Below, piece after piece: positions 31,277-61,605 of a stretch of DNA of 64,000 nucleotides. Location: positions 1-64,000 of the forward strand of contig NOWV01000116.1 of the NCBI GenBank assembly GCA_003344405.1, read 5' to 3'. The stretch is from Trichoplax sp. H2 (taxonomy: Eukaryota). Under the pieces are notes generated by a model, which did not search any database, was not told the DNA's origin, and saw only the letters and a program-made list of their open reading frames with translations. Each line of letters begins with the position of its first letter. Position 1 is the first letter of the stretch. Both the position numbers and the translations under genes were made by a program.

Positions 31277-31914
31277 GATCCACCAATGCAAGACGACAGT
31301 TAATAATAATTGTATTCAAATTGGATACCAACGATCAATTCCAAGGCTGTCAATGATCAGTCCAACTGATGAAGTTTGGAAACAACTTGGAAGCAAGATT
31401 TCGATCAGTAATAACGATCCAACTCTCTTAAAGACCCAATCCAACGGAAAAAGTTGACAGAATCACCCCACTGGGAAGCAAAAGATGAAGATTTCGATCA
31501 GCAATAGCAATCGAGACTGTCGACAGACAGTCCAGACGACGGTAGCTATGGCGACATGAATAGTACGATGGCTTCTCTAGGAGGTCTGCTACCCAAACTA
31601 TCATTAAGATAACACTGCTCACTATAGAAGCCAACAATGAACATCGATATTGTTATGCCTCGAAAGCGGTACAGTACCGGTAGTATAGCAGTCTTGTGTA
31701 CAATGCGCCCTGTAGTGTATAGGGTCTTTACTAGAAGTCAAGAAAAAACAAAAATTCTACCTAGGGTATTAGGGTATCATGTTACCCTGCTCCCAAAGAA
31801 TGACGTCACCTTAGTTAGCGAAGCCCGTCCCCAAAATCAAAAATGGCAGAATGAAAACGAATTAATAAATCATGAATACTAGGATTGCTTTATCTCTCTG
31901 CTTAATTCAGTAAT

Positions 31915-32930
31915 CAAACAGCTTAAGATTTCTATTGGAGCTACTCTTTTTTCCCTAGATGATGCTCGGCATGGCTGACTGGTGTTGTCGACTGTCGGGG
32001 ATATGGAGCATTTCAACTTGATGAATTCATAAATGCTAAATTAAATAAATTAAATTAAATAATAAAGCAACCTAAAGTTTCTATTAGAGCTACTCTTTTT
32101 GGCCTAAATGATTGTTGGCATGGCTGACTGGTGTTGTTGACTATCGGGGACATGGAGCATTTCAACTTGATGAATTCATTAATACTAGAATAATTTAAAT
32201 TAAATAATAAAGCAACCTAAAATTTCTATTGGAGCTACTCTTTTTGGCCTAAATGATTGTTGGCATGGCTGACTGGTGTTGTCGACTATCGGGGACATGG
32301 AGCATTTCAACTTGATGAATTCATTAATACTAGAATAATTTAAATTAAATAATAAAGCTACCTAAAGTTTCTATTGGAGCTACTCTTTGTGGCCTAGATG
32401 ATATTCGGCATGGCTGACTGGTGTTGTCGACTATCGGGGACATGGAGCATTTCAACTTGATGAATTCATTAATGCTTAATTAAATATATATTAAATTAAA
32501 TAATAAAGCAACCTAAAGTTTCTATTGGAGCTACTCTTTTTGCCCTAAATGATTGTTGGCATGGCTGACTGGTATTGTCGACTGTCGGGGACATGGAGCA
32601 TTTCAACTTAATGAATTCATTAATACTAGAATCGCTTGATGTTTCTGCTTAATTAAATAAATTAAATTAAATAATAAAGCAAGCTAAAGTTTCTATTAGA
32701 GCTACTCTTTTTGGCCTAAATGAATGGTAGCATGGCTGACTGGTATTGTCGACTGTCGGGGACATGGAGTGTTTCAACTTAATCAATTTATTAGTACTAG
32801 GATCACTTGATGTTTCTGCTTAATTCAATAATCAAGTAAACTAAGGTTTCTATTGGAGCTACTCCTTTTGGCCTAAATGATTGTTGGCATGACTGACTGG
32901 TGTTGTTGACTGTTGGGGATATGCAACGTT
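31915..32930. repeat. Tandem satellite, 7 units of 145-171 bp
   Basis: Anchor TTCTATT(G/A)GAGCTACTC at 31930, 32079, 32224, 32369, 32520, 32691 and 32848. Each unit has a conserved ~105-bp core and a variable AT-rich linker. Confidence 0.95.
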
Positions 32931-33289: not shown

Positions 33290-34070
33290 ATCTATAGGAA
33301 ATAATTCAATCCTATCATGCAAATCTGCAAGGTGATGAATAACTGATTATACTAACAAAGACAGTATAAATTCAAGAAATTTCGATCTACAGGAAAAAAG
33401 TTCCATCCTAGAAGGGGATTAACAGTTGATTACTAATAGAACCTGTATTAATTCGAGAAACTACTGGCGGCAGGAATAAACACAATCATACAAGGGGATT
33501 ATTGACTGATTACAAATAAAACTACTATAAATTCAAGAAGTAACAGTCTACAGGATGAAGCTCAATCCAATCACAAAGGCGATTAATGACTAGTTACTAA
33601 TAAAATCAGTACAATTCAAAGAAATAGCAGCCTACAGGATAAAGCTTAATCCTATCACAAAGACGATTAACGACTTGTTACTAATAAAATCAGTATCAAT
33701 TCAAGAAATGATTCTCTAAAAGGATAAAGCACAACTCCATCATGCAATCCTAAAAGATGCTTATAAACTGATTACGAATACATTCAGCATCAATTCAAGA
33801 AATAACTGTCTGAAAGAACAAAGCGCAATCCTATCATGCAATCCTAAAAGGTGATTAACAACTGATTAAGAATATAATCAGCATCCATTCAAGAAATAAC
33901 TGCCAAAGGGAAAGCTCAATCTAATCATACAATCCTAATAGGTGATGAATAAGCGATTCATTATAAATAAAATCAGTATAAACTCCAGAGATAATTGACG
34001 AAAGGGGAAGACCACAATCCTAGAATACGAGCTAAATAGATGATGAGCAGCTGATGACAAATAAAACCTA
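33290..34070. repeat. Degenerate tandem array, ~60-75 bp units, immediately upstream of murA
   Basis: About 11 diverged units resembling AATAAAATCAGTAT(A/C)AATTCAAGAAAT..CTACAGGATAAAGCTCAATCCTATCA..GATTAA..CTGATTACT. Confidence 0.85.
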
Positions 34071-34333
34071 CAGTCTATTAATTATAATATAATTGAATTG
34101 TATATTGTTATAAACTGTTAGAACTACCACTTTCAGCGAAGGGTGTGGCTTGTAAGCAATGATTCCGACATTTTCCTTCTGAGTTAAAGGAACTTGTGAG
34201 ACAAATACTTGTCTTTAGGGGTTTATGGGGGTTTCCCTTGGAAACCATTGATGACATACGAGACAGTCAGCCGCTGTACCAATATTGACTATCTTGGGCC
34301 CTGTAACTTACAAGGCAACACTTAGACGTCGTT

Positions 34334-35608
34334 ATGGAGAGAATTTTAATTCAGGGTGGAAACCATCTTTTTGGAGAAATAGCAATAAGTGGCTCAAAGA
34401 ATAGTTCGTTACCTTTAATGGCCGCTAGCCTTTTATCGAATCAAACTTTACAACTTACCAATATTCCTAAGCTATCTGACATAACAACAATGAAGAACTT
34501 GTTAGTGAATCTTGGGACAGTGATAGAAATCGTCGACCAAGAAGATAACGGATTACAGCTAAAATTATCCTCTGCTGACATTCAAAACTATTTTGTACCC
34601 TATGAGATTGAAAGTAAAATAAGAGCATCTATTTGGCTTCTTGGACCATTATTGACTAGGTTTGGTAAAGCAACAGTATCATTTCCAGGAGGTTGTGAGA
34701 TTGGTGCTAGACCAATCGATTTACATATAGCCGTTATGCAAGCGTTAGGAGCAAAAATAATAATGCACCACGATTGTATTGATGCTCATGTAGATGAATG
34801 TTTAGTAGGGTGCAATTTTTCTTTTACCAAAGTATCCGTTGGAGCAACTATAAATGCAATTTTAGCTGCAGTTTTAGCAAAGGGTGAGACCAATTTGTTT
34901 CACTGTGCAAGAGAACCAGAGATAGCTGATTTATGCCGTTGTTTAAATCAAATGGGAGCAGAGATCAAGGGTATTGGTACGACAGAATTGACAATTATTG
35001 GAAAAGATAGGCTCGATGGTACTAGCTATAAGGTAATGCCAGATAGGATAGAAGCAGGAACTTACATGATAGCGGCAGCAGTAACTAGAGGAGATGTCAA
35101 GTTACTGGGCATTGAATGTGACTTAATTGAAAATTTAGTAATGAGAATGAAAGCCGCTGGTGTAAGCATTCTACAGGGTAAGAACTTTATACGAGTGAAA
35201 CATCAAGGTCCTTTAAAGCCTGTTAATATTTCAACACAGCCTCATCCTGGTTTCCCGACTGATTTACAAGCTCAATTCATGTGCTTGATGACCTTGGCGG
35301 AAGGATTATCAACTATTTCGGAGACTATTTTTGAAAATCGGTTTATGCATGTTCGTGAGTTGTGTAAAATGGGAGCTAACATAACTATTGATGGCCATGA
35401 TGCGGTTGTACAAGGAGTCCAATCTCTAGTAGGGGCTGAAGTTATGGCAAGTGATTTAAGAGCTTCGGCAGGTTTAGTGATTGCAGGACTTTGTGCCAGA
35501 GGTGAAACAACCATTAGAGGGGTGCATCACTTAGATAGGGGATATCAGTCGCTTGAAAAGAAATTATCACAGTGTGGGGCTAAAATTTCGAGAATCACGG
35601 GCGATTAA
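34334..35608 (+). CDS. murA: UDP-N-acetylglucosamine 1-carboxyvinyltransferase (bacterial type, intronless)
   Basis: 424-aa uninterrupted ORF with MurA motifs ISGSKNS (K22), RASIWLLGPLL, PGGCEIGARPIDLH (C121, equivalent to E. coli C115), KVSVGAT, AREPEI, PDRIEAGT, PGFPTDLQAQ, ETIFENRFMH, SDLRAS and HLDRGY. Confidence 0.97.
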   Translation: MERILIQGGNHLFGEIAISGSKNSSLPLMAASLLSNQTLQLTNIPKLSDITTMKNLLVNLGTVIEIVDQEDNGLQLKLSSADIQNYFVPYEIESKIRASIWLLGPLLTRFGKATVSFPGGCEIGARPIDLHIAVMQALGAKIIMHHDCIDAHVDECLVGCNFSFTKVSVGATINAILAAVLAKGETNLFHCAREPEIADLCRCLNQMGAEIKGIGTTELTIIGKDRLDGTSYKVMPDRIEAGTYMIAAAVTRGDVKLLGIECDLIENLVMRMKAAGVSILQGKNFIRVKHQGPLKPVNISTQPHPGFPTDLQAQFMCLMTLAEGLSTISETIFENRFMHVRELCKMGANITIDGHDAVVQGVQSLVGAEVMASDLRASAGLVIAGLCARGETTIRGVHHLDRGYQSLEKKLSQCGAKISRITGD

Positions 35609-36077
35609 GTATCACTTTCATCAATAAGAGATTCAAAATACAAAGATTTTAATCGTATTTGATGGAAGACAGCGAAACCAATAACTCTACAATTGGCTTG
35701 AATGGAGAATTAAAAGTACAGCACAGATGCAGAAATAATTTATATTCTGCGGTATACAACCGAAGAGAGTGTCAAAGGTGAATACGTCATATAGTAATCC
35801 TGACGTAGCATTAAAACTGAAGTAAAATTATTTATTACCCGTAATACTTAATTTTTAATACCTTTCTAAAATTTTTCAAGAAGGTATGAATAAGTTTTAT
35901 TAATTTCTGTAGCAACCAAGTAGAAACCATATTGCAGTATCACAGAAACTAGAAATTATTAGTGCCAATTTAGTTCTTCTCGCTTTATGTGGTCTATTCA
36001 TCAATATCCATCACTGGTTGGATAATTCAGATTTGAATGCTGTGCCTAAATAAGTTCGTGAGCAAAATCATAATGTA

Positions 36078-39000
36078 TACAGCTTAAACCAATAGACGGT
36101 AAAATATCTAATAGACTGAAATTTAAATGTTGCCTGAGTTAAGCCTATCTGTAATGTAATTATTGAGGTGACAACCGTAAATCTAAGAAAAGCTCTTCAA
36201 TTCCTTCAAATTAGACAATATAAATATTAGCTCATGCTATCTATCGTAGTATCTTTGCAAAGAGTCATCTTGTACGGAAATAAATCAATTTACTTATAAC
36301 AACTGCAATAAACTTTTGAAAAGGTTCCAAACTTGTACGCCTATCGCTAATTTCGATCATGATCTGAAAGTGTACTTGTGTGAAACAATTTATTATGAGT
36401 GTTGTTGTCGTCTCTTATACGTATTAGCTAGAATATTGTTTACTGCAACAGGTTTATTGAATTACTATGTAACTAATAACAAACTACTTTCAATGAATTA
36501 CTATAAAAATTAGAGTATAAGCATAATAGGTGATTCCTATGTCTTTCTATTAGATATTGTAACAAATAGATATTGAAACCAACTATCGAAACGTCTATAG
36601 GTAATTTGTGAAAATCTACGTGCCTGAGGTACCGGTATATAAATAAAATATCAATTAGTAAAGTAGAACATAACTGGATCAAAGTCTTAATTAAATAGCA
36701 AGGAGAGTTCATTTCCTGAATAAGAATTGTCGATATCTTATAAACAAACTTCGCAAGTCTAGCTGTAGTAAAGAGTAGAAAAACATGCAGACTGTCTATA
36801 AATGTAGTCTACAAATATTTTTATTGAAGCGTACTTGTGTAATGAACATACATATTTTAATTTAGGTTACCTGTATCGTTTTAAATTTCAAATTTATCGA
36901 CCAACTCGAGTCATTTAAATGGGATCAATTGCATAATATATGGGCATGCTGGAATAAATGATTAATGTCATAGTAGATTTCACTTTACTTTGTGATTAAT
37001 TTTACTACACCAAGTTCTAATACTCGTGCACTATGGAAATAGTTATTAAAAGATTACTTAATCTCTAGTAATATTACACTATCGTTAGACACTGTAAAAA
37101 TAGGAAGTTCTTTTATTGTACAATATCCCTAAATGCATATATCATTGGTGTATAGAGTAGAAATATCAAAGCAAAATCTAGTTGGTATTGCTAGGCTTAC
37201 CTGTCTGTGACTAATTTCGGTTATAAAAGCGTAAATTAAATTTAGACAACGGATGCCCTATTTTATGATAACTTGCCACTATAATAGGTTAGTAAATACT
37301 ATCTTTTCTACAAGTATGTTATTACAGCGACTAATGACGATGATTCCTGCAATCATTCATACTGAAGCTGAAATTGCTTTAGCAATGCTTGCTTCTGCTT
37401 GGCTACTTGACAGCATTCGTAATTTTGCATACACGAGCTACTTAAAAAGTCGAATTCTTCTAGAATAGATTTTTGACAACGCTCAAATATCATGATGACT
37501 TTATTTTATTAGTATAATCTTACACCCTAAAACAAATATAAGAAGAATAGAGTATAACATAGATGATACAAACATAACTATTTAAGTATTAAGATTACTA
37601 TACTACGTACTTATATAGCTTACAATAACGACAAGAAATAAAAATAATTCCCTATCAACTAATGATAAACAACATATAAATCTACGTAGTAAGATGTTAA
37701 TCTATATTAACATAAGAAAGCGTCTTAATGGTTTGTGGTATTCTCGGTTGTATGCTTGTATTATCTTACAGCCATACATATTGTCTGAGAAATAGGTTGA
37801 AATTCGATTCCTCGCTTAAAAAATATTTTATAACCTCGTCTATATTGAGTAATGTTAAGAATTAAGATCTTATCGATTGTTTCTTTATCGATCTCTAAAA
37901 TTTTGGAACTTTTTAAGGATAGATATGAAACTAAATAGACGATTGAGGCATGGGTAATACTCGAATTAAGCGATGAAAATGTATGAAATCTATAAACGAG
38001 ATCGAACGTAACAATATAATGTACGAATAGACCTGTTATGATAAAAATGTAAAATGCTACTTGTAGCTGACTAATTGATATCTTAGGTGTGTAATACTTG
38101 AGATAGTTGTATAATTCTGCAGGAATACCAGTGCATGGATGAGTTCTACTTTCATATATATCGTAGTAGGTTTGACATAGTTTAGCTTGGAAATAATGAG
38201 AACCGTTGTTGCCTAAGTGAGCTTGGATTTTCTCTTTGAGTATGTTATGTCCGTCGTTAAAAGTACATTTTACACAACCGAAGCCACATTGCAATAATTT
38301 GACTGCAACTTTATTACTGTCTGACTCAATATATGAGTATTGAAAAACGATGCTCGAAATACCATTAATTGCATGATGGTGGTCGTCTCTTAGACTTCGT
38401 TTAATGTAATCCACAATACTAAGTTTGATAGTTTCTTCATTTAACATTTCTGGGGTATCAATTTCTACGTCATTGATACTGCCAGTTTGAGTGATGATAA
38501 AATCGACTCGCAAAATACCTTGCTTACTATCCAAGATTGTTTGAATATTTTCTTCTATTCTTGGCTTTACATCAATAATTCTTTGACATATAAGAGGACC
38601 TCGATCAGAGTAAGCGCTCAATAACAAATAGATAAAATGCACGTATGGAATTACAATAATAATAATTTCATTGAAATAGCTAGAAAATGCGAAAATAAAT
38701 GTTATAACAGTAATAGCGATTCTAGAAATCAATTGTAAACCGCAAGCTAATAGGGATGCAGTAAAAAAGACAAAAAAGAGTGAGTAGAACGTCATAAAGG
38801 CTAATACGAGAGGATGTATTAAAGGCCAATTTGTTATCTTGGGAAGTAAATTTCGTTTTAATTTGAATGTTAATACTTCAGAAATAAAAAGTAAAGCTCG
38901 TAAAAGTCCAATAAGTCCAAATATGCAAAATGGCAAGCAGATTATAAATGTTAAGAGATCTTTGATAAATTGAAATAGTTGTAGAGAAAGTAGATGATGT

Positions 39001-40759
39001 TTCATATCGACAAGAATGATGTTAATTTGGTGATAGGACTGTCGCTCATAACTTGGCGTTAAGTACATTTGTCTAGTTAGTAGCTCTTGATCATTGTCGT
39101 CAATTTGGTTATACGAATTATTTGAATCACTGGTCAATACCTGTTTCAAATGAGCTAAACTTAAAATCAATATGTATGGCCCGCAACATACTGCTATAAT
39201 AAATCCTATATCTTTAACGTCATGAAGTTTATCCATTTTATGAAATCGAGGTTTAAAAAAAAAATGCATTGAATTTCGTTGCAAAAGAAGAGAAAGAAAT
39301 CCCAATCCCGAAGATAGAATAACCAGTAATAAGAATATAATACAATGACTAATTTCTAGCCAATGGTAGTTAGTAGTATAGTCGGAAAAATGGAAATAGT
39401 TAACATTTTGAAAGTGTAACGTATCTAAGATACGAACCTTGACCATTTTCGTAAGATTTGTTGAATTTGGTAACATACTATCACTACGCTGGAGGTATGT
39501 TTCCCCGATTTGGTGAGACGATCCAGGCGATGATTGATAAGTTTCTTCTTGAATCAATCCTTGATGCGAATTATTAGTTTGTAGTAGGTTTAATGAATGA
39601 TCTTGACTCTCGTCAGAGGTAAGATGAGATTTATGTTCGCAATATCTATTGAAGGAAGATTTTATTCGGGTTATGTGCTACATATACTGTAATAACACTT
39701 TGGATCTGAACTAGGTATGGACTGTAACTGTAAAAAATTAACATTTCTATTTTGAGAAAACAAGTTTAGTTTGCGCTGGGTACTGAACATTGATGTAATT
39801 AGTTGGAATGCTTCTGAATAGATAAACAATAAATAATAGATTGCTTATAGACCGATAATACATAAAGTTCGTTACTGAATTTAAGGTTAACTTTCTACCG
39901 CTTTGTAAAATTTGTGACTTACCGATAATTACCTAATTCTTTCAAGAAGTTGTTAATAAGTTTATCTAACATAGTAACAGCTATAAGGGAACTGATTATT
40001 ATGGAAATTATTTGTACCATACGACCTGTCAATTTCTGTTTCCCTAGAATTAGGCATGTACTAATGTTAATTTTTGCAGCAACTATTTCTCTGTTACAGC
40101 ATGAATAAGGTATAGGATGATGTAAAAGTTCCTGTTTTCTATTAAAGCGTCGCCAAAATATTGTAGGACAATATCTACCAAAACAACCTCCACTTGAGTT
40201 TGTAAATTTTAATAATGCCTCAAAAATGATATACTTTCTTTTGGAATCACTTGTTAGTCGAGCATAGCAACCTCGGCTTGATTCAATAAGATTTAAACTC
40301 TGTCGATGTACGAAAACTGAATATAGACTTAAGCTTGTAGCAATATAATCGACCGGTAAAGAAATCAGAGCCCAACTAAAATCGTCTTTAACCCAGCCAT
40401 AGAAGTCATAATTTTTAGAATCGTTGTGTAGATTCTGACCATTTATTATCAGATTAAAATACACTATTTTAGTTTCTTTTGCTTCGATTTTTTGTCGAAA
40501 TAGGGCATAATGATGTGTATCATCATACACACTTAGAGAGCATTTGGAAGTGTTAAAAGACTTCTGTATCACTTGATCGGATGAATTTATAGACGCTGCT
40601 TGGATCAAGCAAACGACAAATACTACATAATGAAGAGATCGATTTCTAAACAAACCTAAAGTCATCGTCCTGTAAGATATAATTGAATAATATATTCACA
40701 TTACTTTAGTGTTCTGATATAATTACAATAAAGAATTATTACGTGTTAGAATTTTGTGT
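36078..40759. repeat. Arm A of a recent ~4.7-kb inverted segmental duplication (partner 49419-54454)
   Basis: The reverse complement is nearly identical to 49419-54454, including non-coding DNA. Homology ends sharply at 36078/54454 and 40759/49419. Confidence 0.95.
37442..40665 (-). CDS. Uncharacterised signal-peptide + Cys-rich ectodomain + multipass membrane protein, copy 1 (~875-878 aa)
   Basis: ORFs 39919-40665 and 37761-39557 join in phase via intron 39646-39922 (CG|GTAAGT..TCAATAG|A). A probable extra terminal exon lies at 37442-37459; without it the stop is at 37761. A probable non-coding 5' exon has its donor at 41165. Confidence 0.85.
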
Positions 40760-42434
40760 GCTTTTACTACAATATTAGCGATTACAAAATTAGCATTTCG
40801 TCGTATTTACTCTAAATGTCTACGCCTAAGTCTATTCGATCATTATAGGTATCTATTTATTCGCTAAATACAAGCCAGCTACAGTAAGAGATTTTAATGT
40901 CCCTAAAAATAAAATTAGAGGCAATCCGTAGAAGATAATGCGTAAGATTTGGAGAATGCAACATTATTAGCAAAGGTTACTCAGAATAACAGCTAGTGCA
41001 CACTTAATTATGCATTAAACTATCGAAAGATTTAACAATTGATATTGGAAATTATAAGTGAGTTACATATGGCACTAGAAATAACTACGTCGACGATTAA
41101 ATTGTTATATCAGAAACAGATTTTTCAAAAATCTAAGACATATATTAGATTTACTGTGAACTTACCTTCAATGTTACGATCAAGCTAACTTATAAAGGTC
41201 TTATTTCGCTCCTAGGACAATGATTTCTAAACTGTTTGAAATAACCAATTACGCAAGTTGAAATAGCAAAATGCCTAGAGATTTGATTATAAAACGCTGC
41301 AACACTTATTGATTGATAATGAAGTTTATTCTCTTATTGGGAAGTAATAATTTTGTACTAAAAATTGATGTTAAATTTTGAATAATTGACAATCTGAAAG
41401 AGAAGATTTACCAAATATTGTCGTTGTACACGTCACTTACGATCTGCAAATAAGCAATGTTTTCTCTATCTACTATTTCTTAAGTGATATCTATATCTAT
41501 CAACTGAAGTATTTAATTATTTATGCATAAAATAGTTTGTGATATCGTAATTTATGCAATGTTTGCATTTGTGTCATGCTGCGTCGAGAACGATAATAAC
41601 AACAGTAATAATTATTACAAAAATTGAGTAGCCGGTTTTACAGTGATATCGACGTTGGAATGAAGAAAACATCGACATTTTTTAATTTGATTCTATAGAG
41701 CTTTTACTAATAAACTATAGTTAACAATATCGATCTAATGTTACTGCTGCCTTGCTGCACTATAGAGAAGTAAACACGTAGGGTAAGTGATGGGGTAGCC
41801 TTCTCCTTCTGTAGTAGATCTCTTAAAATCTCGACTATGAAGCTATAACAATAGTAATCAACAAGAAACTGCAACTACTTTTTCAATCATACTCTCATTT
41901 CATAAGCTTCGTAGAGCTAACTACTGTTAGTGATCCTAAAATTTAAACAACATTATCAACCTACCTATCAGTTGTAATCATTTTGGCATTCTGTAGTGAT
42001 ACACCTCATATTTGATTATAATGATAGCTATATTCGATATAGTTAGGTTTCTAAGAATAGATATTATTGTGATGCTAATATTAGATGATTAATAACTACT
42101 ACATTAGAAATTGTCGATGACTAATGTAATGAAATGTAATATATAGAAATCAAGCTACAGAACTTTTAATAAATTTCGATTCAACCTTCGTGGCACTCTG
42201 GTCGACTAAACGAAACTTTGACACCCAATCAAATTGGGCAAACAACCGAACAACAATTTATTAAGTAAAATGTGAGACAGATAGACTAAACAACCTTCAA
42301 ATATTTGATTCTAAATATTATTGGTAAAGAGATCAAAAAACGACAGAACTGAAACTGTCAACAACAAAACAACCTAACAAAAAGAAGAACGTTTTCACTT
42401 ACAACAATTCTATCCAAAATAGTTGGTCAATTGT

Positions 42435-42622
42435 GCGGCCATTCATGGGGATTGACTGAATGGCGGGCCGATTGCTCGGTTATTGATTGGATTGACCAAG
42501 TTCACGGTTAGTTGCTCGGCCAGTCATAGGGAATAGCTGAATTGCTCGTCCAGTCATAGGGAATAGCCGAATTGCTCGGTCATTCCCTGGGAATGATCGA
42601 GCAACGGGGATTGACCGTAACA
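42435..42622. repeat. Short GC-richer array of ~29-bp units, possible transposon fragment
   Basis: TTGCTCG(G/T)CCAGTCATAGGGAATAGC(T/C)GAA tandem copies plus degenerate neighbours. Confidence 0.6.
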
Positions 42623-43061: not shown

Positions 43062-46001
43062 TTATCCTATAGCAATGCTTATTGCTTGAGAAATAGGTTG
43101 AAATTCGATTCCTCGTTTGAAAAATGTTTTATAACCTCGTCGATATTGAGTAATGTTAAGAATTAAGATCTTGTCGATTCTTTCTTTCTCGATCTCGAGT
43201 AGCTTGGAATATTTTAAAGATAGAAATGTAGCTAAATAGGCAATCGAAGTATTAGCAACAATCGAATTTAACGATGAAATTGAACGAAGTTTATAAACGA
43301 GAAAGATCGTAACAGTATAAAAGAAGAATAGAGCTGTTACGATTAAAATGTTAAATGCTACTTGTAATTGACTAATTGATATCTCAGGCGTATAATGTTT
43401 CAGATAATCGTATAATTCTGCAGGAATGCCAACGCTTTTATGAGCTCCATCTTCATATATATCGTAGTAGACTTGAGTTAATTTACTACGAAAGTAATAA
43501 GAATCTCTGTTTTGTAACTGAGTTTCTATTATCTCTGCGAGTGTACTATATCCGTTGTCGAAAGAGCATTTTACACAACCAAAGCCGCATTGCAATAATT
43601 TGACTGTAACTTTATTATTGTCCGACATATTTTGGGAGTATTGAAAAATAATGCTCGAAGTTCCATTAACTGCATGATGATGGCTATCTCTAACACTTCT
43701 TCTGATACAAACCTCGATACAATCTTTGATAATTTCTTCATTTAAAATTTCTGGGATATCAATTTCTACGTTACTAACATTGGCAACTTGAGTAATTATG
43801 AAATTGACTCGCAAAACACCTTGCTTACTATCCAAGATTGTTTGGATATTTTCTTCTATCCTAGATTTTACATCAATAATTCTTTGAGATATTAGAGGAC
43901 CTCGAATAAAATATGCACGTAATAATTGATAGATAAAATGCAAGTATGGTATCATAATAATAATAATTTGATTAAAATAGGCAGAAAACGCAAAAATAAA
44001 CGTTACGACAGTAATGAAGATTCTAAGAAATAATTGTATACCGAACAATAATATTGTTGCAGCAGTAAGGACAAGTACCATAGAGTATAATGTCATTATT
44101 ACTGACATAAGGAAATATGTTAAAGGCCAATTCCTTCTGTTGGGCAGTAAATTTCGTTTACATTTCAATGTTGATATTTCAAAAATAAAAAATAAAGCCC
44201 GTAAAAGCCCAATGAGTCCAAGTATACAAAATGGCAAACAAGCTGTAAGTGTCAAGAGATCTTTGATAAATAGAAGTAGTTGTAGAGATAGTAAATGGTC
44301 TTTCATATCGACAAGAATGATTTTAATTTGGTGATAGGACTGTCGCTCATGACTTGGTGTTAAGTATATTTTTCTAGATAGTAGCTCTTGATCATTGGTA
44401 CCATTTTGGTTATACAATTCTTTTGAATCTCTCGAATATATTTGTTTCAAAAGGCATACAATAAAGAAGACTGTGTATGGCCCATAGGCGCAAACTACTA
44501 TATAACTTATTTCAGGTATGTTGTGAATTATCTCGCTTTTATTAAATTTGGGCGTAAAAATAAAATATGTTGAATTTCGTTGTACAAGAAGAGAAATAAA
44601 TCCCAATCCACCGGACAGGATAACTAGTGATAATAGCTTAATAGAGTAACATATTTTTCGCCAATGATAATTGATAGCATAGTCGTAAAAATAGAGATAG
44701 TTAACATTTTGCGACTGTAACGTATCTAAAATGCGAATCTTAACCATTTTCGGAAGATTTACTGAATTTGATAACATACGATTGCTGAATCTGCCATGCG
44801 TTCCACTAATTTGATGAAATGATCTAAGCAATGATTGATGAATTTCTTCTTGATCTAATTCCTGACACGAATTATTAGTTGACTGGTTTAATCGATAATT
44901 TTGACTCTCATCTGAGGTCAAGTGAGATTCTTGTTGGAAATATCTAGAAGAAAAGAAATTTTACTGGGACTAAATGTTACATATACTGTAATAACACTTT
45001 AAATCTGAGTTAATAGTGTCAAAAATCCAATATTAGATTGTAAGTACTGTAGTTGTAAGGGGTTAATATTTTATATTACGCGAAAAATAAGTTTTGTTTA
45101 CGCTGGTACTGAACATTGAAGTAAATAGTCGGGTTATTAAAAAAACAGATAGACAATAAACTATGAATTGCTTGTAGAATGATAATATATAAAATTTGTT
45201 ATTCAATTTAAAGTTAAATTCATATCGCATTGTAAAATATGTGACTTACCGATAACTGCATAATTCTTTCAAGAACTTATTAATAAGTTTATCCAATACT
45301 ACAGCGGCCATAGAGTAGCTAATCATCATGGAAATTATTCGCATAGCATGAACGTACCACAGTTGCTTTTTAGGTGTTAGGCATGTGCTAATGTTAATTT
45401 TGGGATTAATTGTTCTTCTGTTACAGCAAGAATACTTAACATTCCGATAAAAAAATCCATCTAATCTATTGAAGGATCGCAAACATATTGTAGAACAATC
45501 TTGACCATAACAACCTTGATTTAAGTTTGTAAATTGTAGTAATGTTGTAAATACGATGTGCTGTCTTTGGGTATCATTTAGTTCATCATAACAACCTCGG
45601 GTTGATTCAATAAGATCTAAGCTTTGTTCAGACGTGAAAATTGAATATAGGTTTAAGCTTATAGCAATGTAATCGGTCGGCAAAGAAATCATAGCCATGC
45701 CAAGATCTTTTCTAACCAGACTATAAAAATCATGGTCATAGTAACGTTCGCTTATAGTACGTTGCTCTACAGTCTGATTATTTATAGTCAAATAAAAAAA
45801 AACTACTCGAGTTCTTTCTGATTGGATAATTTCTCGAAATAGGGCATGTTCAGATGCATTATCCTTCACAGTTAGAGAACAATTGGAATTATCAGAAAGT
45901 TCCTGTATGACTGGATCGGATAAATCACTATACACTGCTTGGATTAAGCAAGCAATAAACACCACATAATGAGATCGATTCCTAAGCAAATCTAAAGGCA
46001 T
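43062..46001 (-). CDS. Same multipass membrane family, copy 2 (877 aa)
   Basis: Exons 45250-46001 and 43062-44943 have the same phase-2 intron. Shared motifs: MVKxRILDTL, RQSYHQI, LLQCGFGCVKC, GIPAELYxYLK, KILILNITQYRRGYK. Confidence 0.87.
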
Positions 46002-48521: not shown

Positions 48522-49512
48522 AATGATAATATTTAATGGCAAAGGTTGTGTTCATTTCTTAAGTAACTAGATTGTTATTTTTATGATTAAATCTTGATGT
48601 TTAAAGATTAATTTTTAGACTTTTATAATGTATCAATGACGTAGAATTATATTAGAAGTGAAGCTTGATGTTTTTATAGTTAAGTTTGTTGGTTTTATAG
48701 TGTTTTGTAAGGGAATCATAAGGTAAATTGTGTCTGAACTTTGAACGATTTTTTTCTTAAGCGGTGCAAAGTAGTTCTCTAAAATGGATCTTAAGAGTGA
48801 TTGGTCAATAAATGTTTAGTTTTAAATACCACCGCGGGCTCTACGAAGTCTATAAATAATAGGCAATCAAAAAATTTAGAGTAGAGATTAAAAGAAAATT
48901 TTTTGGATGAACTTGTTGAACGTTAAAGGCCTTCGGAGTCGAACAATTGTTAGTGAAAACGTTCTTCTTTTTGTTAGGCAGTTTTGTTGTTGGCAGTTTC
49001 AGTTCAGTTGTTTTATTATTATTTCTTCACTTATAATACTTAGAATTAAGTATTTGGAAGGTTGTTTGATCTGTCTCTCTCATATTTTCTTAATAAATTG
49101 TTGATCGGTTGTTTCCCCAATTTTTCTTTATGCATCAAAGTTTCATTTAAGTCGACCAGAGTGCCAAGATAGTAGAATTAAAGTTTGTTAGAAGTTTTGT
49201 AGCTTGATTTCTACATATTTCTATTCATTACTGTGATGGAGGGTTCGAAGAGTCAGATAATGTGGTTTTAGTTGCCATGAAGAGAATTGCACAAGGAGCT
49301 TAAGAAAAGAAGATACTTTATTGTAGATAGTAGCTAGGTACAATGTGATAATTACGGTAGGTCAGCGCGGTAGCTGCCGTGAGTAAAGTGTGAATACTAA
49401 AGTGTGAATACTGTGAATACACAAAATTCTAACACGTAATAATTCTTTATTGTAATTATATCAGAACACTAAAGTAATGTGAATATATTATTCAATTATA
49501 TCTTACAGGACG

Positions 49513-52500
49513 ATGACTTTAGGTTTGTTTAGAAATCGATCTCTTCATTATGTAGTATTTATCGTTTGCTTGATCCAAGCAGCGTCTATAAATTCATCCG
49601 ATCAAGTGATACAGAAGTCTTTTGACGCTTCCAAATGCTCTCTAAGGGTGTATGATGATACACGTCATTATGCCATATTTCGACAATATATCGAAGCAAA
49701 AGAAACTAAAATAGTGTTTTTTAATCTGACAATATTTGGTCAGAATCTACACAACGATTCTAAAAATTATGACTTCTATGGCTGGGTTAAAGACGATTTT
49801 AGTTGGGCTCTGATTTCTTTACCGGTCGATTATATTGCTACAAGCTTAAATCTTTATTCAGTTTTCGTACATCGACTGAGTTTAAATCTTATTGAATCAA
49901 GCCGAGGTTGCTATGCTCGACTAATAAGTGATTCCAAAAGAAAGTATATCATTTTTGAGGCATTATTAAAATTTACAAACTCAAGTGGAGGTTGTTTTGG
50001 TAGATATTGTCCTACAATATTTTGGCGACGCTTTAATAGAAAACAGGAACTTTTACATCATCATATATCTTATTCACATTGTAACAGAGAAATAGTTGCT
50101 CCAAAAATTAATATTAGTACATGCCTAATTCTAGGGAAACAGAAATTGACAGGTCGTATGGTACAAATAATTTCCATAATAATCAGTTCTCTTATAGCTG
50201 CTACTATGTTAGATAAACTTATTAACAACTTCTTGAAAGAATTAGGTAATTATCGGTAAGTCACAAATTTTACAAAGCGGTAGAAAGTTAACCTTAAATT
50301 CAGTAACGAACTTTATGTATTATCGGTCTATAAGCAATCTATTATTTATTGTTTATCTATTCAGAAGCATTCCAACTAATTACATCAATGTTCAGTACCC
50401 AGCGCAAACTAAACTTGTTTTCTCAAAATAGAAATGTTAATTTTTTACAGTTACAGTCCATACAATGCAATACAGTGCTGTATCTATGACAATGCTAGTT
50501 CAGATCCAAAGTGTTATTACAGTATATGTAGCACATAACCCGAATAAAATCTTCCTTCAATAGATATTGCGAACATAAATCTCATCTTACCTCTGACGAG
50601 AGTCAAGATCATTCATTAAACCTACTACAAACTAATAATTCGCATCAAGAATTGATTCAAGAAGAAACTTATCAATCATCGCCTGGATCGTCTCACCAAA
50701 TCGGGGGAACATGCTTCCAGCGCAGTGATAGTATGTTACCAAATTCAACAAATCTTACGAAAATGGTCAAGGTTCGTATCTTAGATACGTTACACTTTCA
50801 AAATGTTAACTATTTCCATTTTTCAACTATACTACTAACTACCATTGGCTAGAAATTAGTCATTGTATTATATTCTTATTACTGGTTATTCTATCTTCGG
50901 GATTGGGATTTCTTTCTCTTCTTTTGCAACGAAATTCAATGCATTTTGTTTTTAAACCTCGATTTCATAAAATGGATAAACTTCATGACGTTAAAGATAT
51001 AGGATTTATTATAGCAGTATGTTGCGGGCCATACATATTGATTTTAAGTTTAGCTCATTTGAAACAGGTATTGACCAGTGATTCAAACAATTCGTATAAC
51101 CAAATTGACGACAATGATCAAGAGCTACTAACTAGACAAATGTACTTAACGCCAAGTTATGAGCGACAGTCCTATCACCAAATTAACATCATTCTTGTCA
51201 ATATGAAACATCATCTACTTTCTCTACAACTATTTCAATTTATCAAAGATCTCTTAACATTTATAATCTGCTTGCCATTTTGCATATTTGGACTTATTGG
51301 ACTTTTACGAGCTTTACTTTTTATTTCTGAAGTATTAACATTCAAATTAAAACGAAATTTACTTCCCAAGATAACAAATTGGCCTTTAATACATCCTCTC
51401 GTATTAGCCTTTATGACGTTCTACTCACTCTTTTTTGTCTTTTTTACTGCATCCCTATTAGCTTGCGGTTTACAATTGATTTCTAGAATCGCTATTACTG
51501 TTATAACATTTATTTTCGCATTTTCTAGCTATTTCAATGAAATTATTATTATTGTAATTCCATACGTGCATTTTATCTATTTGTTATTGAGCGCTTACTC
51601 TGATCGAGGTCCTCTTATATGTCAAAGAATTATTGATGTAAAGCCAAGAATAGAAGAAAATATTCAAACAATCTTGGATAGTAAGCAAGGTATTTTGCGA
51701 GTCGATTTTATCATCACTCAAACTGGCAGTATCAATGACGTAGAAATTGATACCCCAGAAATGTTAAATGAAGAAACTATCAAACTTAGTATTGTGGATT
51801 ACATTAAACGAAGTCTAAGAGACGACCACCATCATGCAATTAATGGTATTTCGAGCATCGTTTTTCAATACTCATATATTGAGTCAGACAGTAATAAAGT
51901 TGCAGTCAAATTATTGCAATGTGGCTTCGGTTGTGTAAAATGTACTTTTAACGACGGACATAACATACTCAAAGAGAAAATCCAAGCTCACTTAGGCAAC
52001 AACGGTTCTCATTATTTCCAAGCTAAACTATGTCAAACCTACTACGATATATATGAAAGTAGAACTCATCCATGCACTGGTATTCCTGCAGAATTATACA
52101 ACTATCTCAAGTATTACACACCTAAGATATCAATTAGTCAGCTACAAGTAGCATTTTACATTTTTATCATAACAGGTCTATTCGTACATTATATTGTTAC
52201 GTTCGATCTCGTTTATAGATTTCATACATTTTCATCGCTTAATTCGAGTATTACCCATGCCTCAATCGTCTATTTAGTTTCATATCTATCCTTAAAAAGT
52301 TCCAAAATTTTAGAGATCGATAAAGAAACAATCGATAAGATCTTAATTCTTAACATTACTCAATATAGACGAGGTTATAAAATATTTTTTAAGCGAGGAA
52401 TCGAATTTCAACCTATTTCTCAGACAATATGTATGGCTGTAAGATAATACAAGCATACAACCGAGAATACCACAAACCATTAAGACGCTTTCTTATGTTA

Positions 52501-52766
52501 ATATAGATTAACATCTTACTACGTAGATTTATATGTTGTTTATCATTAGTTGATAGGGAATTATTTTTATTTCTTGTCGTTATTGTAAGCTATATAAGTA
52601 CGTAGTATAGTAATCTTAATACTTAAATAGTTATGTTTGTATCATCTATGTTATACTCTATTCTTCTTATATTTGTTTTAGGGTGTAAGATTATACTAAT
52701 AAAATAAAGTCATCATGATATTTGAGCGTTGTCAAAAATCTATTCTAGAAGAATTCGACTTTTTAA
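49513..52766 (+). pseudogene. Same family, copy 3, frameshifted (inverted duplicate of copy 1)
   Basis: Exon 49513-50255, then exon 2 from 50564. TTTTTCCGACTAT in copy 1 reads TTTTTCAACTAT here (net -1 nt at ~50824), giving a stop at 50852. The downstream frame stays open to 52447. The 5' non-coding exon was not duplicated. Could also be a consensus error. Confidence 0.75.
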
Positions 52767-53403
52767 GTAGCTCGTGTATGCAAAATTACGAATGCTGTCA
52801 AGTAGCCAAGTAGAAGCAAGCATTGCTAAAGCAATTTCAGCTTCAGTATGAATGATTGCAGGAATCATCGTCATTAGTCGTTGTAATAACATACTTGTAG
52901 AAAAGATAGTATTTACTAACCTATTATAGTGGCAAGTTATCATAAAATAGGGCATCCGTTGTCTAAATTTAATTTACGCTTTTATAACCGAATTAATCGC
53001 AGACAGGTTAGCCTAGCAATACCAACTAGATTTTGCTTTGATATTTCTACTCTATACACCAATGATATATGCATTTAGGGATATTGTACAATAAAAGAAC
53101 TTCCTATTTTTACAGTGTCTAACGATAGTGTAATATTACTAGTGATTAAGTAATCTTTTAATAACTATTTCCATAGTGCACGAGTATTAGAACTTGGTGT
53201 AGTAAAATTAATCACAAAGTAAAGTGAAATCTACTATGACATTAATCATTTATTCCAGCATGCCCATACATTATGCAATTGATCCCATTTAAATGACTAG
53301 AGTTGGTCGATAAATTTGAAATTTAAAACGATACAGGTAACCTAAATTAAGATATGTATGTTCATTACACAAGTACGTTTTAATAAAAATATTTATAGAC
53401 AGT

Positions 53404-53761
53404 TGTTACAATACGTAAGCTCGTCCTAATTACAGAAGTTTCTGACGAGACTATAAAAGGCTGGTGCCTGAAGATTCCTTTTTAGTTAGTTGATCGGTTG
53501 GATAGTCAACTAGTTTTTCAATTGATATTTAATTGTAAAGTCTATAATCTTGGGTACCGAGATTTCTTCAGTATTAAATGATAGTCAATCTCTGACTTTC
53601 TCGTCTACACTATCTGTGACGCTAACATTGTACCATAGTATTCGGTCGTTGGAACTGAATTATTTGGTGATATAGCTAATCTCGCCTCTTTAAGTTAGTA
53701 AGTGGTGTTCTCCGCAAGGATTGGCGTGTGTAGACTACTTTGTCACTAGTGGTGTGTGACA
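53404..53761 (+). mobile_element. Solo LTR of an LTR retrotransposon (358 bp)
   Basis: TGTTACA...TGTGACA termini and a perfect 5-bp TSD ACAGT (53399-53403, 53762-53766). TATAAAA at 53452 and ATTAAA at ~53573. Absent from the paralogous site in arm A (~36791-36795). Confidence 0.85.
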
Positions 53762-54782
53762 ACAGTCCGCATGTTTTTCTACTCTTTACTACAGCTAGAC
53801 TTGCGAAGTTTGTTTATAAGATATCGACAATTCTTATTCAGGAAATGAACTCTCCTTGCTATTTAATTAAGACTTTGATCCAATTATGTTCTACTTTACT
53901 AATTGATATTTTATTTATATACCGGTACCTCAGGCACGTAGATTTTCACAAATTACCTATAGACGTTTCGATAGTTGGTTTCAATATCTATTTGTTACAC
54001 TATCTAATAGTAAGACATAGAAATCACCTATTATGCTTATACTCTAATTTTTATAGTAATTCATTGAAAGTAGTTTGTTATTAGTTACATAGTAATTCAA
54101 TAAACCTGTTGCAGTAAACAATATTCTAGCTAATACGTATAAGAGACGACAATAACACTCATAATAAATTGTTTCACACAAGTACACTTTCAGATCATGA
54201 TCGAAATTAGCGATAGACGTTCAAGTTTGGAACCTTTTCAAAAGTTTATTGCAGTTGTTACAAGTAAATTGATTTATTTCTGTACAAGATGAAAGCATGA
54301 GCTAATACTTATATTATCTACTTTGAAGGAATTGAAGAGCTTTTCTTAGATTTACGGTTGTCACCTCAATAATTACATTACAGATAGGCTTAACTAAGGC
54401 AACATTTAAATTTCAGTCTATTAGATATTTTACCGTCTATTGGTTTAAGCTGTAATCAAGGTGCACGCTACTTAGTAAACGTGATAATAAATCGTATTTC
54501 AATAGTCTTATTAAATTAATAATCATGATTCACATGTAATTGATTAATATGCAGTGCTCTCAGTACCCCGCCGGTTTAGTTGGCTCAGGTCGTGTCATGC
54601 TATCTACAAATTTATCTCAGATGCGCAATAAAGTAACTAAGGCAGTTCTTAAATTCGCGTTCATGCGACTAAAATAACTAACTGAATTGCGTTCATTGCT
54701 ACGATAGATATATACCAACAATGGCGAGATGCACTTTATATATGAACTTGACCGTATGCGAAATCGGTCATTTTGCAAACTG

Positions 54783-55335
54783 CTCTTTAAGATTGCATGA
54801 TGGGATTGTACATTATCCTTTTAGGCAATGATTTGTTGAATTGATAACGATTTTATTAGTAAGAAGTCGTTAATCTTCTCTGTGATAGGATTGAGCTTTA
54901 TCCTGTAGAATGTTACTTCTTGAGTATATGCTGATTTTATTGATGACTAGTCATTAATCGCTTTTGTGATTGGATTGAGCTTTATTCTGTAAACTGTTAC
55001 TTCTTGAATTTATACTGATTTTATTGGTATCTAGTCGTTAATCGCTTTTGTAATAGGATTAAGCTTTATCCTGTAGACTGTTACTTCTAGAATTTATAGT
55101 AGTTTTATTTGTAATCAGTCAATAATTCCCCTTGTACTCGTATGATTGTGTTTTTTTCGTGGCGCCAGTTGTTTTTCGAATTTATACAGGTTCTGTTAGT
55201 AATCAATTGTTAATCCCCTTCTGGGATGGAACTTTTTTCCTGTAGATAGAAATTTCTTGAATTTATACTGGTTTTATTAGTATAATCAGTTATTCATTAC
55301 CTTACAGATTTACATGATAGGATTGTACTTTTTCC
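54783..55335. repeat. Inverted copy of the 33300-33760 part of the array upstream of murA
   Basis: The reverse complement aligns unit by unit, including distinctive variants such as TCTACAGGAAAAAAGTTCCATCC(T/C)AGAAGGGGATTAACA. Confidence 0.88.
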
Positions 55336-61300: not shown

Positions 61301-61605
61301 AAAGAAATCATAGCTATACCAGCATCTTCTCTAACCCATCCATAAAAGTCATGGTTTTTATGATCAGTCTGCAGATTCTTATTATCTATAGTCAAATTAA
61401 AAAAGATTACTCGAATTGTTTTTGGTCGGGTAAGTTCTCGAAATCGGGCATATTCAGATACATTATCCTTCACAGTTAGTGAGCAATTACAGGTGTCAAA
61501 AGGCTGCTGTATCACTTGATCGGATGGATTAGTATACGCTACTTGGATTAAGCAAACGATAAATGCCATATAATGAGATCGATTGGTAAATAAACCTAAA
61601 ATCAT
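58338..61605 (-). CDS. Same multipass membrane family, copy 4 (~874-877 aa)
   Basis: Exons 60866-61605 and 58680-60555 are in phase. A probable terminal exon lies at 58338-58355; without it the stop is at 58671. Probable 5' non-coding exon donor at 62066. Confidence 0.87.

What the first reader, a model, noticed from the sequence alone, without database searches (positions are those of the whole stretch)
39923..40665. Ectodomain diverges while the membrane/C-terminal part is nearly identical between copies 1 and 3
Seen: I count 18 amino-acid differences in the 248-aa first exon (e.g. N38D, S45R, K59Y, N75F, Q122L, C189H, including multi-base codon changes and sequon gain/loss), against only about 3 synonymous changes spotted by eye. 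The last ~510 aa differ at only 2 residues. Inference: diversifying selection on a ligand-binding surface, or gene conversion homogenising the 3' part or importing exon-1 patches from other paralogues.
Basis: partly seen in the sequence, partly recalled or inferred. Interest (0 to 1): 0.7.

Follow-up and report, generated by a model that had tools for sequence, protein, structure and literature searches.

The report
Patchy gene conversion between placozoan paralogues
Two inverted copies of an uncharacterised Trichoplax membrane-protein gene keep overwriting each other, and the first exon is a patch that the latest overwriting missed; selection for new variants in that exon was not shown.

Summary
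Exon 1 of copy 1 (40665..39923, minus) and of copy 3 (49513..50255, plus) differ at 25 bases and 18 of 247 residues. Three codons differ only synonymously. The 94 bp upstream and the 277-bp intron have no substitution. The last ~540 residues differ at 2.

The window is Trichoplax sp. H2. The genes are TrispH2_008788 and TrispH2_008790, from a placozoan-only family with no Pfam or PDB relative.

The two copies are arms of an old inverted duplication: the edges are about 16% diverged and the centre 0-3.4%. Recurrent gene conversion between the arms explains this. There is a 1610-bp identical run (permutation p<5e-5). Both copies share states that differ from the T. adhaerens pair. The T. adhaerens copy-3 orthologue carries copy-1 residues at codons 38-59.

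dN/dS in exon 1 is 1.4, which cannot be told apart from 1 (p=0.56-0.63) or from the family's 0.6-0.75. No difference needs another paralogue as donor.

Copy 3 also has a 1-bp frameshift in exon 2 and has lost a family-invariant cysteine, yet its exon 1 is transcribed and spliced.

Verdict: an ordinary concerted-evolution mosaic. Selection that keeps the two ectodomains apart is not excluded.

The parts
39923..40665 (-). Copy 1 (TrispH2_008788), exon 1 coding part: signal peptide, ~185-aa Cys-containing glycosylated ectodomain, one transmembrane helix
   Evidence: Translation is identical to P0001 residues 1-247. GTAAG donor after 39923. Model with pLDDT 80.5.
39977..40617 (-). Diverged core: all 25 substitutions between copies 1 and 3 in exon 1 lie here (3.9%)
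   Evidence: The densest 641-bp window has permutation p<5e-5.
39646..39922 (-). Copy 1 intron 1 (277 nt). No substitution against copy 3. It lacks 31 bp that copies 2, 3, 4 and 5 have.
37761..39645 (-). Copy 1 exon 2 with stop codon: Ser/Gln/His-rich linker, multi-pass membrane region, ~140-aa alpha/beta domain, further helices
   Evidence: P0001; hydropathy; model with pLDDT 76.6. 39007..37398 is identical to copy 3.
36078..40759 (.). Homogenised part of the copy-1 arm of the inverted duplication
   Evidence: 0-3.4% diverged here, about 16% beyond both ends.
49419..54454 (.). Homogenised part of the copy-3 arm. It holds a 361-bp insertion at 53401..53761 relative to copy 1.
48920..48948 (+). 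3' end of copy 3's own 5'-UTR exon, spliced to the acceptor before 49509
   Evidence: The 29 loose letters of the copy-3-type contig of run X1 match here exactly and nowhere else in the window. GT follows.
49509..50255 (+). Copy 3 (TrispH2_008790) exon 1; coding sequence from 49513
   Evidence: A 554-nt contig of run X1 covers 49509..50062 with 0 differences.
50256..50563 (+). Copy 3 intron 1 (308 nt)
   Evidence: GT..AG joint 50254>50563 (cut +1) in run X1. That contig does not reach a site that tells the two copies apart.
50564..52447 (+). Copy 3 exon 2, with a 1-bp deletion after 50823. The plainly spliced product stops after 343 aa. The deposited model skips 296 nt to keep the frame.
   Evidence: A 1634-nt contig of run X19 carries the deletion.
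43062..46001 (-). Copy 2 (TrispH2_008789), outgroup paralogue
57095..57800 (-). Copy 4 fragment (TrispH2_008791, partial): 3' half of exon 1, the intron and the start of exon 2. About 91% identical to copies 1 and 3.
58671..61605 (-). Copy 5 (TrispH2_008792), outgroup paralogue
33296..33848 (.). Un-homogenised far end of the copy-1 arm. It pairs with 54786..55336 at 16.4% substitutions.
42126..42404 (.). Un-homogenised inner flank of copy 1 (5'-UTR intron region). It pairs with 48947..49231 at 15.5% substitutions.

Best explanation
Copies 1 and 3 are the arms of an old inverted duplication, with a spacer of about 8.7 kb that holds copy 2. The arms repeatedly copy sequence from one to the other (interlocus gene conversion).

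The most recent tracts erased all differences in about 1.6 kb of exon 2, in intron 1 and in the 142 bp around the start codon. The 641-bp core of exon 1 and the first 86 codons of exon 2 were not covered by these latest tracts, so they keep older differences.

Those differences arose on both lineages at a rate close to neutral, as exon 1 does throughout this family. Short tracts are eroding them in other alleles.

Copy 3 is also structurally damaged: it has a frameshift in exon 2 and has lost an invariant cysteine. Part of its changes therefore probably reflects relaxed constraint.

Shown here: the mosaic, the tract boundaries, the shared states within each genome, the mosaic alleles, and dN/dS not distinguishable from 1.

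Inferred: the order and direction of conversion events, and the idea that sequence divergence itself now hinders conversion in the core.
For: (1) Age gradient. Substitutions are 16.4% (89/543) at the far ends of the arms and 15.5% (43/278) at the inner flanks. Inside they are 2.16% (15/693), 1.26% (12/956), 0.48% (9/1881), 0% (0/277 intron; 0/94 upstream) and 3.36% (exon 1).

(2) The longest identical run is 1610 bp among 46 substitutions in 3951 bp. None of 20000 permutations reached it.

(3) Concerted states. Both window copies have I578 and A596. Both T. adhaerens genes (TRIADDRAFT_60548 and 60550) have T and T, which is the state of copies 2 and 5.

(4) Mosaic alleles.
- The T. adhaerens copy-3 orthologue P0056 has copy-1 residues at all six sites of codons 38-59, including copy-1-derived states, and copy-3 residues elsewhere. 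The tract is 66-156 bp.
- T. adhaerens copies 1 and 3 therefore differ at 12 exon-1 residues, not 18.
- A 900-nt contig of run X19 is copy-3-type at 49624-49736, 49877, 50190 and 50201, and copy-1-type at 49850, 49854, 49925 and 50063-50112. The switch between 49854 and 49877 is only 22 bases wide, shorter than the 31-letter words behind these contigs.

(5) Control. In other paralogue pairs exon 1 and its intron are about equally diverged: copies 1-4 8.3% vs 8.7%; 1-5 26% vs 27%; 2-5 20.5% vs 24.8%; 1-2 30% vs 24%. Exon 1 normally evolves at nearly the intron's rate, so 0/277 in the copy-1/copy-3 intron points to a younger history of the intron.

(6) dN/dS is 1.44 (p=0.63) or 1.37 (likelihood-ratio p=0.56 against 1, p=0.15 against 0.65). 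The family's exon 1 runs at 0.59-0.75.
Against: All 25 differences of the 5' 1045 bp lie inside the coding exon. Identity resumes within 48 and 54 bases of the exon's ends, as selection against converting the ectodomain would also give.

All 8 changes assigned to the copy-1 lineage are nonsynonymous.

Three codons are hit more than once (P=0.035). One is hit three times (P=0.009), and an intermediate codon exists in another allele: TGC, CGT, CAT.

Synonymous sites of exon 1 (4/158) are too few to date the patch independently.

The read evidence is from assembled contigs, which can drop variants and can be chimeric where copies share 31 or more bases.
Confidence: 0.68

Rival explanations
1. Selection keeps two ectodomain types apart. 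Conversion sweeps the whole unit, but converted exon-1 variants are removed, or new replacements are favoured, because the two ectodomains bind different partners on fibre cells.
For: - dN/dS is nominally above 1.
- The copy-1 lineage has 8 nonsynonymous and 0 synonymous changes.
- Multi-hit codons are over-represented, and one codon shows a stepwise Cys>Arg>His series.
- One glycosylation sequon is exchanged.
- The intron and 5' flank are identical although the exon is not.
- Both exon-1 types are present in runs of two organism codes, and the copy-3 type is transcribed and spliced.
- Copies 1, 2 and 3 sit in the fibre-cell gene module of a published single-cell atlas (PMC10580291, supplementary file 3).
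Against: - No test reaches significance (p=0.56-0.63).
- dN/dS is also compatible with the family's usual 0.65 (p=0.15).
- Changed sites are not concentrated in variable columns (p=0.76).
- Between the H2 and T. adhaerens copy-3 proteins, every exon-1 difference is at a copy-1/copy-3 site. Six are swaps to the copy-1 state and one is H189R. There is no other new replacement.
- Conversion does enter the exon in at least one independent assembly.
- Copy 3 carries a frameshift.
Confidence: 0.2
2. Copy 3 is a decaying gene, and its exon-1 changes are drift under relaxed constraint.
For: - A 1-bp deletion after 50823 gives a 343-aa product unless 296 nt are skipped.
- It has lost Cys189, which is invariant in 22 of 22 relatives.
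- Its lineage shows 9 nonsynonymous and 2 synonymous assigned changes, close to the neutral ratio.
Against: - This explains only one lineage. Copy 1, which is intact, has 8 private replacements.
- It does not explain why the intron and flanks are identical.
- Copy-3-type exon 1 is transcribed from its own 5'-UTR exon and spliced.
- The gene is kept in T. adhaerens.
- The cysteine loss may be harmless. Copies 1, 3 and 4 had already lost Cys170, leaving an odd number of cysteines. That these two cysteines pair is my inference and was not tested.
Confidence: 0.3
3. Patches of exon 1 were imported from other paralogues of the array.
For: At 8 sites copy 3, and at 11 sites copy 1, agrees with copies 2, 4 and 5.
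Against: - That agreement is what retention of the ancestral state gives.
- The two classes interleave at distances of 3-30 bases.
- Copy-4-specific or copy-2/5-specific bases next to these sites were not carried along. For example, the largest possible copy-4 tracts around 40110 and 40077 are about 13-14 bp.
- The remaining family members are only 20-36% identical in protein.
Confidence: 0.04
4. The two copies are alleles or an assembly artefact.
For: Trichoplax lineages are highly heterozygous (PMC6057997, passages read). Copy-3-specific contigs have about half the depth of shared contigs.
Against: - The independent T. adhaerens assembly has both genes on one scaffold.
- The flanks are about 16% diverged, with large indels and a separate 5'-UTR exon.
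- Homology stops at 33296/55336 instead of running on, as it would for a haplotig.
Confidence: 0.03

Closest known systems
Arm-to-arm gene conversion in inverted repeats (palindromes) of mammalian sex chromosomes (recalled, not looked up here)
   Same: Two inverted arms around a spacer stay nearly identical through intrachromosomal conversion, while sequence outside the converted tract diverges.
   Different: The arms here are short (about 4.7 kb homogenised) and autosomal status is unknown. Homogenisation is patchy, with a 641-bp coding patch left at 3.9%.
Primate red/green opsin genes, where introns are homogenised more than some exons (recalled, not looked up here)
   Same: The intron next to a diverged exon is more alike than the exon itself.
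   Different: In opsins the diverged residues have a measured function (spectral tuning). Here no function is known and no selection test is significant.
Placozoan orthogroup OG_4851 of the single-cell atlas, PMC10580291
   Same: It holds these genes: 29 genes in four placozoans, namely 14 H. hongkongensis, 3 H23, 7 T. adhaerens and 5 H2 (supplementary file 4).
   Different: It is only listed there, with no gene name in the rows I saw. Neither structure nor evolution is discussed in what I read.

Membership tests
Interlocus gene conversion (concerted evolution) between duplicates | The central tract is much more alike than the edges of the same duplication | tested here: met
   15.5-16.4% at the edges against 0-3.4% inside.
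Interlocus gene conversion (concerted evolution) between duplicates | Identical runs are longer than chance allows | tested here: met
   A 1610-bp run; 0 of 20000 permutations reach it.
Interlocus gene conversion (concerted evolution) between duplicates | Copies within one genome share states that differ between genomes | tested here: met
   I578/A596 in both H2 copies; T/T in both T. adhaerens genes.
Interlocus gene conversion (concerted evolution) between duplicates | Mosaic alleles that combine states of the two copies | tested here: met
   P0056 has copy-1 states at codons 38-59. The X19 contig is a mosaic, with the caveat that it is an assembled contig.
Positively selected (diversifying) ectodomain | dN/dS significantly above 1 | tested here: not met
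   1.44, p=0.63. 1.37, likelihood-ratio p=0.56.
Positively selected (diversifying) ectodomain | Repeated replacement at the same codons | tested here: inconclusive
   Three multi-hit codons, P=0.035. One triple hit, P=0.009. Multi-nucleotide mutation would give the same pattern.
Positively selected (diversifying) ectodomain | Changes cluster on a variable or exposed surface | tested here: inconclusive
   Column entropy of the 18 sites equals that of the rest (p=0.76).
Sterol-sensing-domain / Patched-RND proteins (UniRef names the relative TRIADDRAFT_60553 'SSD domain-containing') | Match to the Pfam sterol-sensing or Patched models | tested here: not met
   No Pfam family for 0 of 5, 0 of 21 and 0 of 5 family members. 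The last set includes TRIADDRAFT_60553 itself.
Sterol-sensing-domain / Patched-RND proteins | Shared fold with solved members | tested here: inconclusive
   Foldseek best E=0.81. VIA-align best Z=8.6, to designed helical bundles. The 539-residue model was searched whole.
Pseudogene (copy 3) | Disrupted reading frame | tested here: met
   1-bp deletion; stop after 343 aa.
Pseudogene (copy 3) | No transcription or processing | tested here: not met
   A copy-3-type exon-1 contig is joined to its 5'-UTR exon.

The most novel reading that the evidence does not exclude
The two exon-1 types are old, functionally distinct ectodomain variants of a placozoan-only surface receptor of fibre cells. Selection removes conversion tracts that would merge them. 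Copy 3, cut short by its frameshift, makes a 343-aa single-pass form: the ectodomain without the multi-pass module. It would act as a decoy or co-receptor.
Probability: 0.13. Interest if true: 0.55.

Novelty: new member of a known kind. Interest (0 to 1): 0.3.

Why it matters
The case shows how a raw excess of replacement changes between two recent-looking paralogues can come from patchy gene conversion and not from adaptive change. The neutral yardstick next to the exon, the intron, had simply been reset.

It also documents three things in a placozoan:
- interlocus conversion with tracts as short as 66-156 bp
- an orphan membrane-protein family of about 29 genes with confidently modelled but unmatched folds
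- a transcribed copy with a conserved frameshift

If the ectodomain types proved functional, the family would be a candidate recognition system of fibre cells.

Tried and rejected
No whole genome is held for this window, so paralogues outside the window could be studied only as proteins.

Family and fold assignment failed.
- Pfam gave nothing in 4 calls.
- PDB profile searches: best E=0.12 and 0.33.
- Foldseek on both models: no match at E<=0.001.
- VIA-align wide: best Z=3.0 for the ectodomain. For the exon-2 module the best was Z=8.6, to designed helical bundles only.
- ESM Atlas: best feature score 0.75, TM<=0.20.

Independent alleles were looked for in three ways.
- A protein search with copy-3 exon 1 found only the copy-4 fragment (1 protein).
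- A metagenome scan with a 26-base exon-1 word found 0 stretches.
- Earlier findings of this scan gave nothing by place (near) or by sequence.

A search of paper full texts for five gene identifiers found 0 papers. The identifiers do occur in supplements of PMC10580291.

In the laid contigs of runs X1, X2 and X3, the stretch 50546-51213 shows only the copy-1 letters, without the deletion. Contigs drop variants, so I draw nothing from the absence of copy-3 letters there.

Contig depth (copy-3-specific contigs at about half the depth of shared ones) is not a copy number by the tool's own warning, and I used it only as a remark.

Site-model tests such as PAML or HyPhy were not possible. Coding DNA is available for only four full copies, and recombination is evident among them.

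Full report
WHAT IS THERE

The window is AT-rich eukaryotic DNA. A protein search gave a 100% match to TrispH2_008788 of Trichoplax sp. H2 (5 proteins at E<=0.001 among 8000 scored candidates). The window therefore comes from a placozoan.

It holds four full copies and one fragment of one gene family:
- copy 1: minus strand; exon 1 at 40665..39923; exon 2 at 39645..37764
- copy 2: minus strand; 46001..43062
- copy 3: plus strand; exon 1 at 49513..50255; exon 2 from 50564
- copy 4: a fragment at 57800..57095
- copy 5: minus strand; 61605..58671

Each full gene has a 743-bp first coding exon, a phase-2 intron and one long second exon. The deposited proteins are P0001 (copy 1, 875 aa), P0005 (copy 2), P0002 (copy 3, 776 aa) and P0004 (copy 5).

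The aligned units run 40759..36807 against 49419..53400. Their substitutions are distributed like this:

| Segment | Substitutions | Aligned bp | Note |
|---|---|---|---|
| Upstream of the start codon | 0 | 94 | |
| Exon 1 | 25 | 743 | |
| Intron 1 | 0 | 277 | plus a 31-bp indel |
| Exon 2 | 9 | 1881 | plus a 1-bp indel |
| Downstream | 12 | 956 | |

- Exon 1 against the rest gives Fisher p=6e-8.
- Three codons differ only synonymously.
- The last ~540 residues differ at two.

The first 86 codons of exon 2 carry four more replacements. Copy 3 has lost one base after 50823. As a result the plainly spliced copy-3 message stops after 343 residues. The deposited model avoids this by skipping 296 nt, which removes 99 residues and two membrane helices.

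THE DUPLICATION IS OLD AND ITS CENTRE HAS BEEN RESET

A self-comparison of the window shows that the homology between the two arms goes beyond the gene.
- Going outward, the arms are 2.16% diverged (15/693).
- After a 2.2-kb stretch present only on the copy-1 side, they are 16.4% diverged (89/543).
- On the inner side, past the sharp boundary at 40759/49419, the 5'-UTR intron regions are 15.5% diverged (43/278).

A duplication whose edges are ~16% apart cannot have a 1610-bp identical stretch by descent alone. None of 20000 permutations of the 46 substitutions reached such a run. The centre has therefore been overwritten, in tracts of different age.

INDEPENDENT ASSEMBLIES SHOW CONVERSION DIRECTLY

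T. adhaerens has both genes: TRIADDRAFT_60548 (P0003, copy-1 type) and TRIADDRAFT_60550 (P0056, copy-3 type).

Two exon-2 residues behave in a concerted way. Both H2 copies have I578 and A596. Both T. adhaerens genes have T and T, which is the state of copies 2 and 5.

In exon 1, P0056 differs from the H2 copy 3 at seven residues.
- Six of them (38, 39, 45, 51, 55, 59) are the copy-1 residues. They include states that arose on the copy-1 lineage according to the outgroups.
- The seventh is R189 in place of H189.
- So one allele of copy 3 carries a copy-1 tract of 66-156 bp, and in T. adhaerens the two genes differ at 12 exon-1 residues, not 18.
- No other new replacement separates the H2 and T. 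adhaerens copy-3 proteins in exon 1.

Public runs add to this, with the caveat that all were kept as assembled contigs.
- Of 24 runs listed, 20 hold at least half of the sampled words of copy-3 exon 1. They come from 9 studies and carry two organism codes.
- I laid four of them on 49000..53500.
- Run X19 has a 900-nt contig with copy-3 letters at 49624-49736, 49877, 50190 and 50201. It has copy-1 letters at 49850, 49854, 49925 and 50063-50112. One switch lies within 22 bases, too short to be a joining artefact of 31-letter words.
- Run X3 has CGT at codon 189. This is the arginine of P0056 and lies between copy 1's TGC and the window's CAT.

IS THERE SELECTION?

Nei-Gojobori counts are 21.0 nonsynonymous changes over 582.7 sites and 4.0 synonymous changes over 158.3 sites. 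That gives dN/dS 1.44, with Fisher p=0.63.

A pairwise maximum-likelihood codon model (F3x4 codon frequencies, kappa 2.96) gives 1.37. The likelihood-ratio test has p=0.56 against 1 and p=0.15 against 0.65.

Among the older paralogues exon 1 runs at 0.59-0.75 and exon 2 at 0.38-0.47. In those pairs exon 1 is about as diverged as its intron: 8.3% vs 8.7%, 26% vs 27%, 20.5% vs 24.8% and 30% vs 24%. So exon 1 of this family is always close to neutral. What is unusual about the copy-1/copy-3 pair is the clean intron, not the exon.

With copies 2, 4 and 5 as outgroups:
- 8 sites changed on the copy-1 lineage, all nonsynonymous
- 11 sites changed on the copy-3 lineage, two of them synonymous
- 6 sites are ambiguous
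- the two classes interleave, so no patch was imported from those paralogues

The 18 sites are not enriched in variable columns of a 26-sequence family alignment (p=0.76).

Some points still speak for selection:
- the 8:0 count on the intact copy 1
- three codons hit more than once (P=0.035), one of them three times (P=0.009)
- the exchange of one glycosylation sequon
- the fact that all differences lie inside the exon

COPY 3

It has lost Cys189, which is invariant in 22 of 22 relatives. However, copies 1, 3 and 4 had already replaced the equally conserved Cys170 by Phe. That leaves seven conserved cysteines, so removing Cys189 restores an even number. That 170 and 189 were partners is my inference and was not tested.

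Copy 3 is not silent.
- Run X1 has a 583-nt contig whose 554 letters match 49509..50062 without a difference.
- Its other 29 letters match 48920..48948 exactly and nowhere else in the window.
- The genomic sequence has GT after 48948 and AG before 49509. This is a spliced 5'-UTR exon that belongs to copy 3.
- A GT..AG joint 50254>50563 confirms intron 1, but that contig does not reach a site that tells the copies apart.
- The frameshift is present in a 1634-nt contig of run X19.

WHAT THE PROTEIN IS

An exhaustive phmmer search found 48 relatives at E<=0.001. Of ten that I looked up, six carry Trichoplax names and four are unnamed. Many are single-exon open frames from short contigs, which is why the two modules appear as separate proteins.

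No Pfam family matched any of the 31 family members tested. This includes the relative that UniRef calls SSD-domain-containing.

The ectodomain model (pLDDT 80.5, pTM 0.72) and the exon-2 model (pLDDT 76.6, pTM 0.58) have no convincing PDB match.

A published placozoan single-cell atlas (PMC10580291; I read rows of supplementary files 3 and 4) puts the family in orthogroup OG_4851, with 29 genes in four species. Its gene-module assignments are:
- copies 1, 2 and 3 of H2: the fibre-cell module (membership 0.79, 0.81, 0.52)
- T. adhaerens 60549 and 60550: the fibre-cell module as well
- copy 5: an epithelial module

If that method reads 3' ends, copies 1 and 3 cannot be told apart well, because their 3' coding 1.6 kb is identical.

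VERDICT

The pattern is real and highly non-random. The best-supported cause is patchy, recurrent gene conversion between inverted paralogues, with exon 1 as a not-yet-erased and already eroding patch. Diversifying selection is neither shown nor excluded. This is a new example of a well-known process, in an uncharacterised placozoan gene family.

Noticed in passing
window 34307..35608 (+): An intact 433-codon open frame for a bacterial-type MurA (Pfam EPSP_synthase, E=2.7e-97). Its best relatives are Rickettsiaceae and alphaproteobacterial MAGs at 63-70% identity over the full length (7 of 12 loci). It lies in a ~2.2-kb stretch (33848..36078) that is present in the copy-1 arm and absent from the copy-3 arm. 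The transfer is already published for T. adhaerens (PMC3641634, passages read). The single-cell atlas lists it as TrispH2_008787 in a 'cilia' module (membership 0.61).
   Followed up: partly
window 50823 (copy 3) and P0002, P0003, P0056: The deposited models of copy 3 in both species skip the same 99 residues (two membrane helices) through a GTAAGA..AAACAG pair. So does the T. adhaerens model of copy 1. In copy 1 the skipped stretch is 297 nt and in frame, and contigs of run X1 read straight through it. Whether the skip is ever used is open.
   Followed up: partly
window 40156..40158 (codon 170 of copy 1) and alignment A1: The family ectodomain has ten conserved cysteine columns. Copies 1-5 lack two of them (38, 142), and copies 1, 3 and 4 also lack Cys170 (Phe). 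So disulfides were lost step by step in this sub-clade.
   Followed up: partly
window 49151..49301 and 53379..53500: Contig depth in the DNA runs is 10-30 times that of the neighbouring sequence, and many loose ends sit there. These are dispersed repeats at both edges of the copy-3 unit, next to the conversion boundary at 49419.
   Followed up: no
window 51643, 51823, 51835, 51849, 51902: Runs X1, X3 and X19 show other letters than the window at most of these exon-2 sites. Two of those letters correspond to the T. adhaerens residues T578 and T596. Run X2 differs only at 51902. This points to several haplotypes of the homogenised part.
   Followed up: partly
window 22734..25287 (+): Open frames of a BTB/Kelch-type gene, read from the translations only.
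   Followed up: no
window 31904..32923 and 42440..42620: Tandem repeats: units of about 150 bp at 81-87% identity in the first stretch, and short direct repeats upstream of copy 1 in the second.
   Followed up: no
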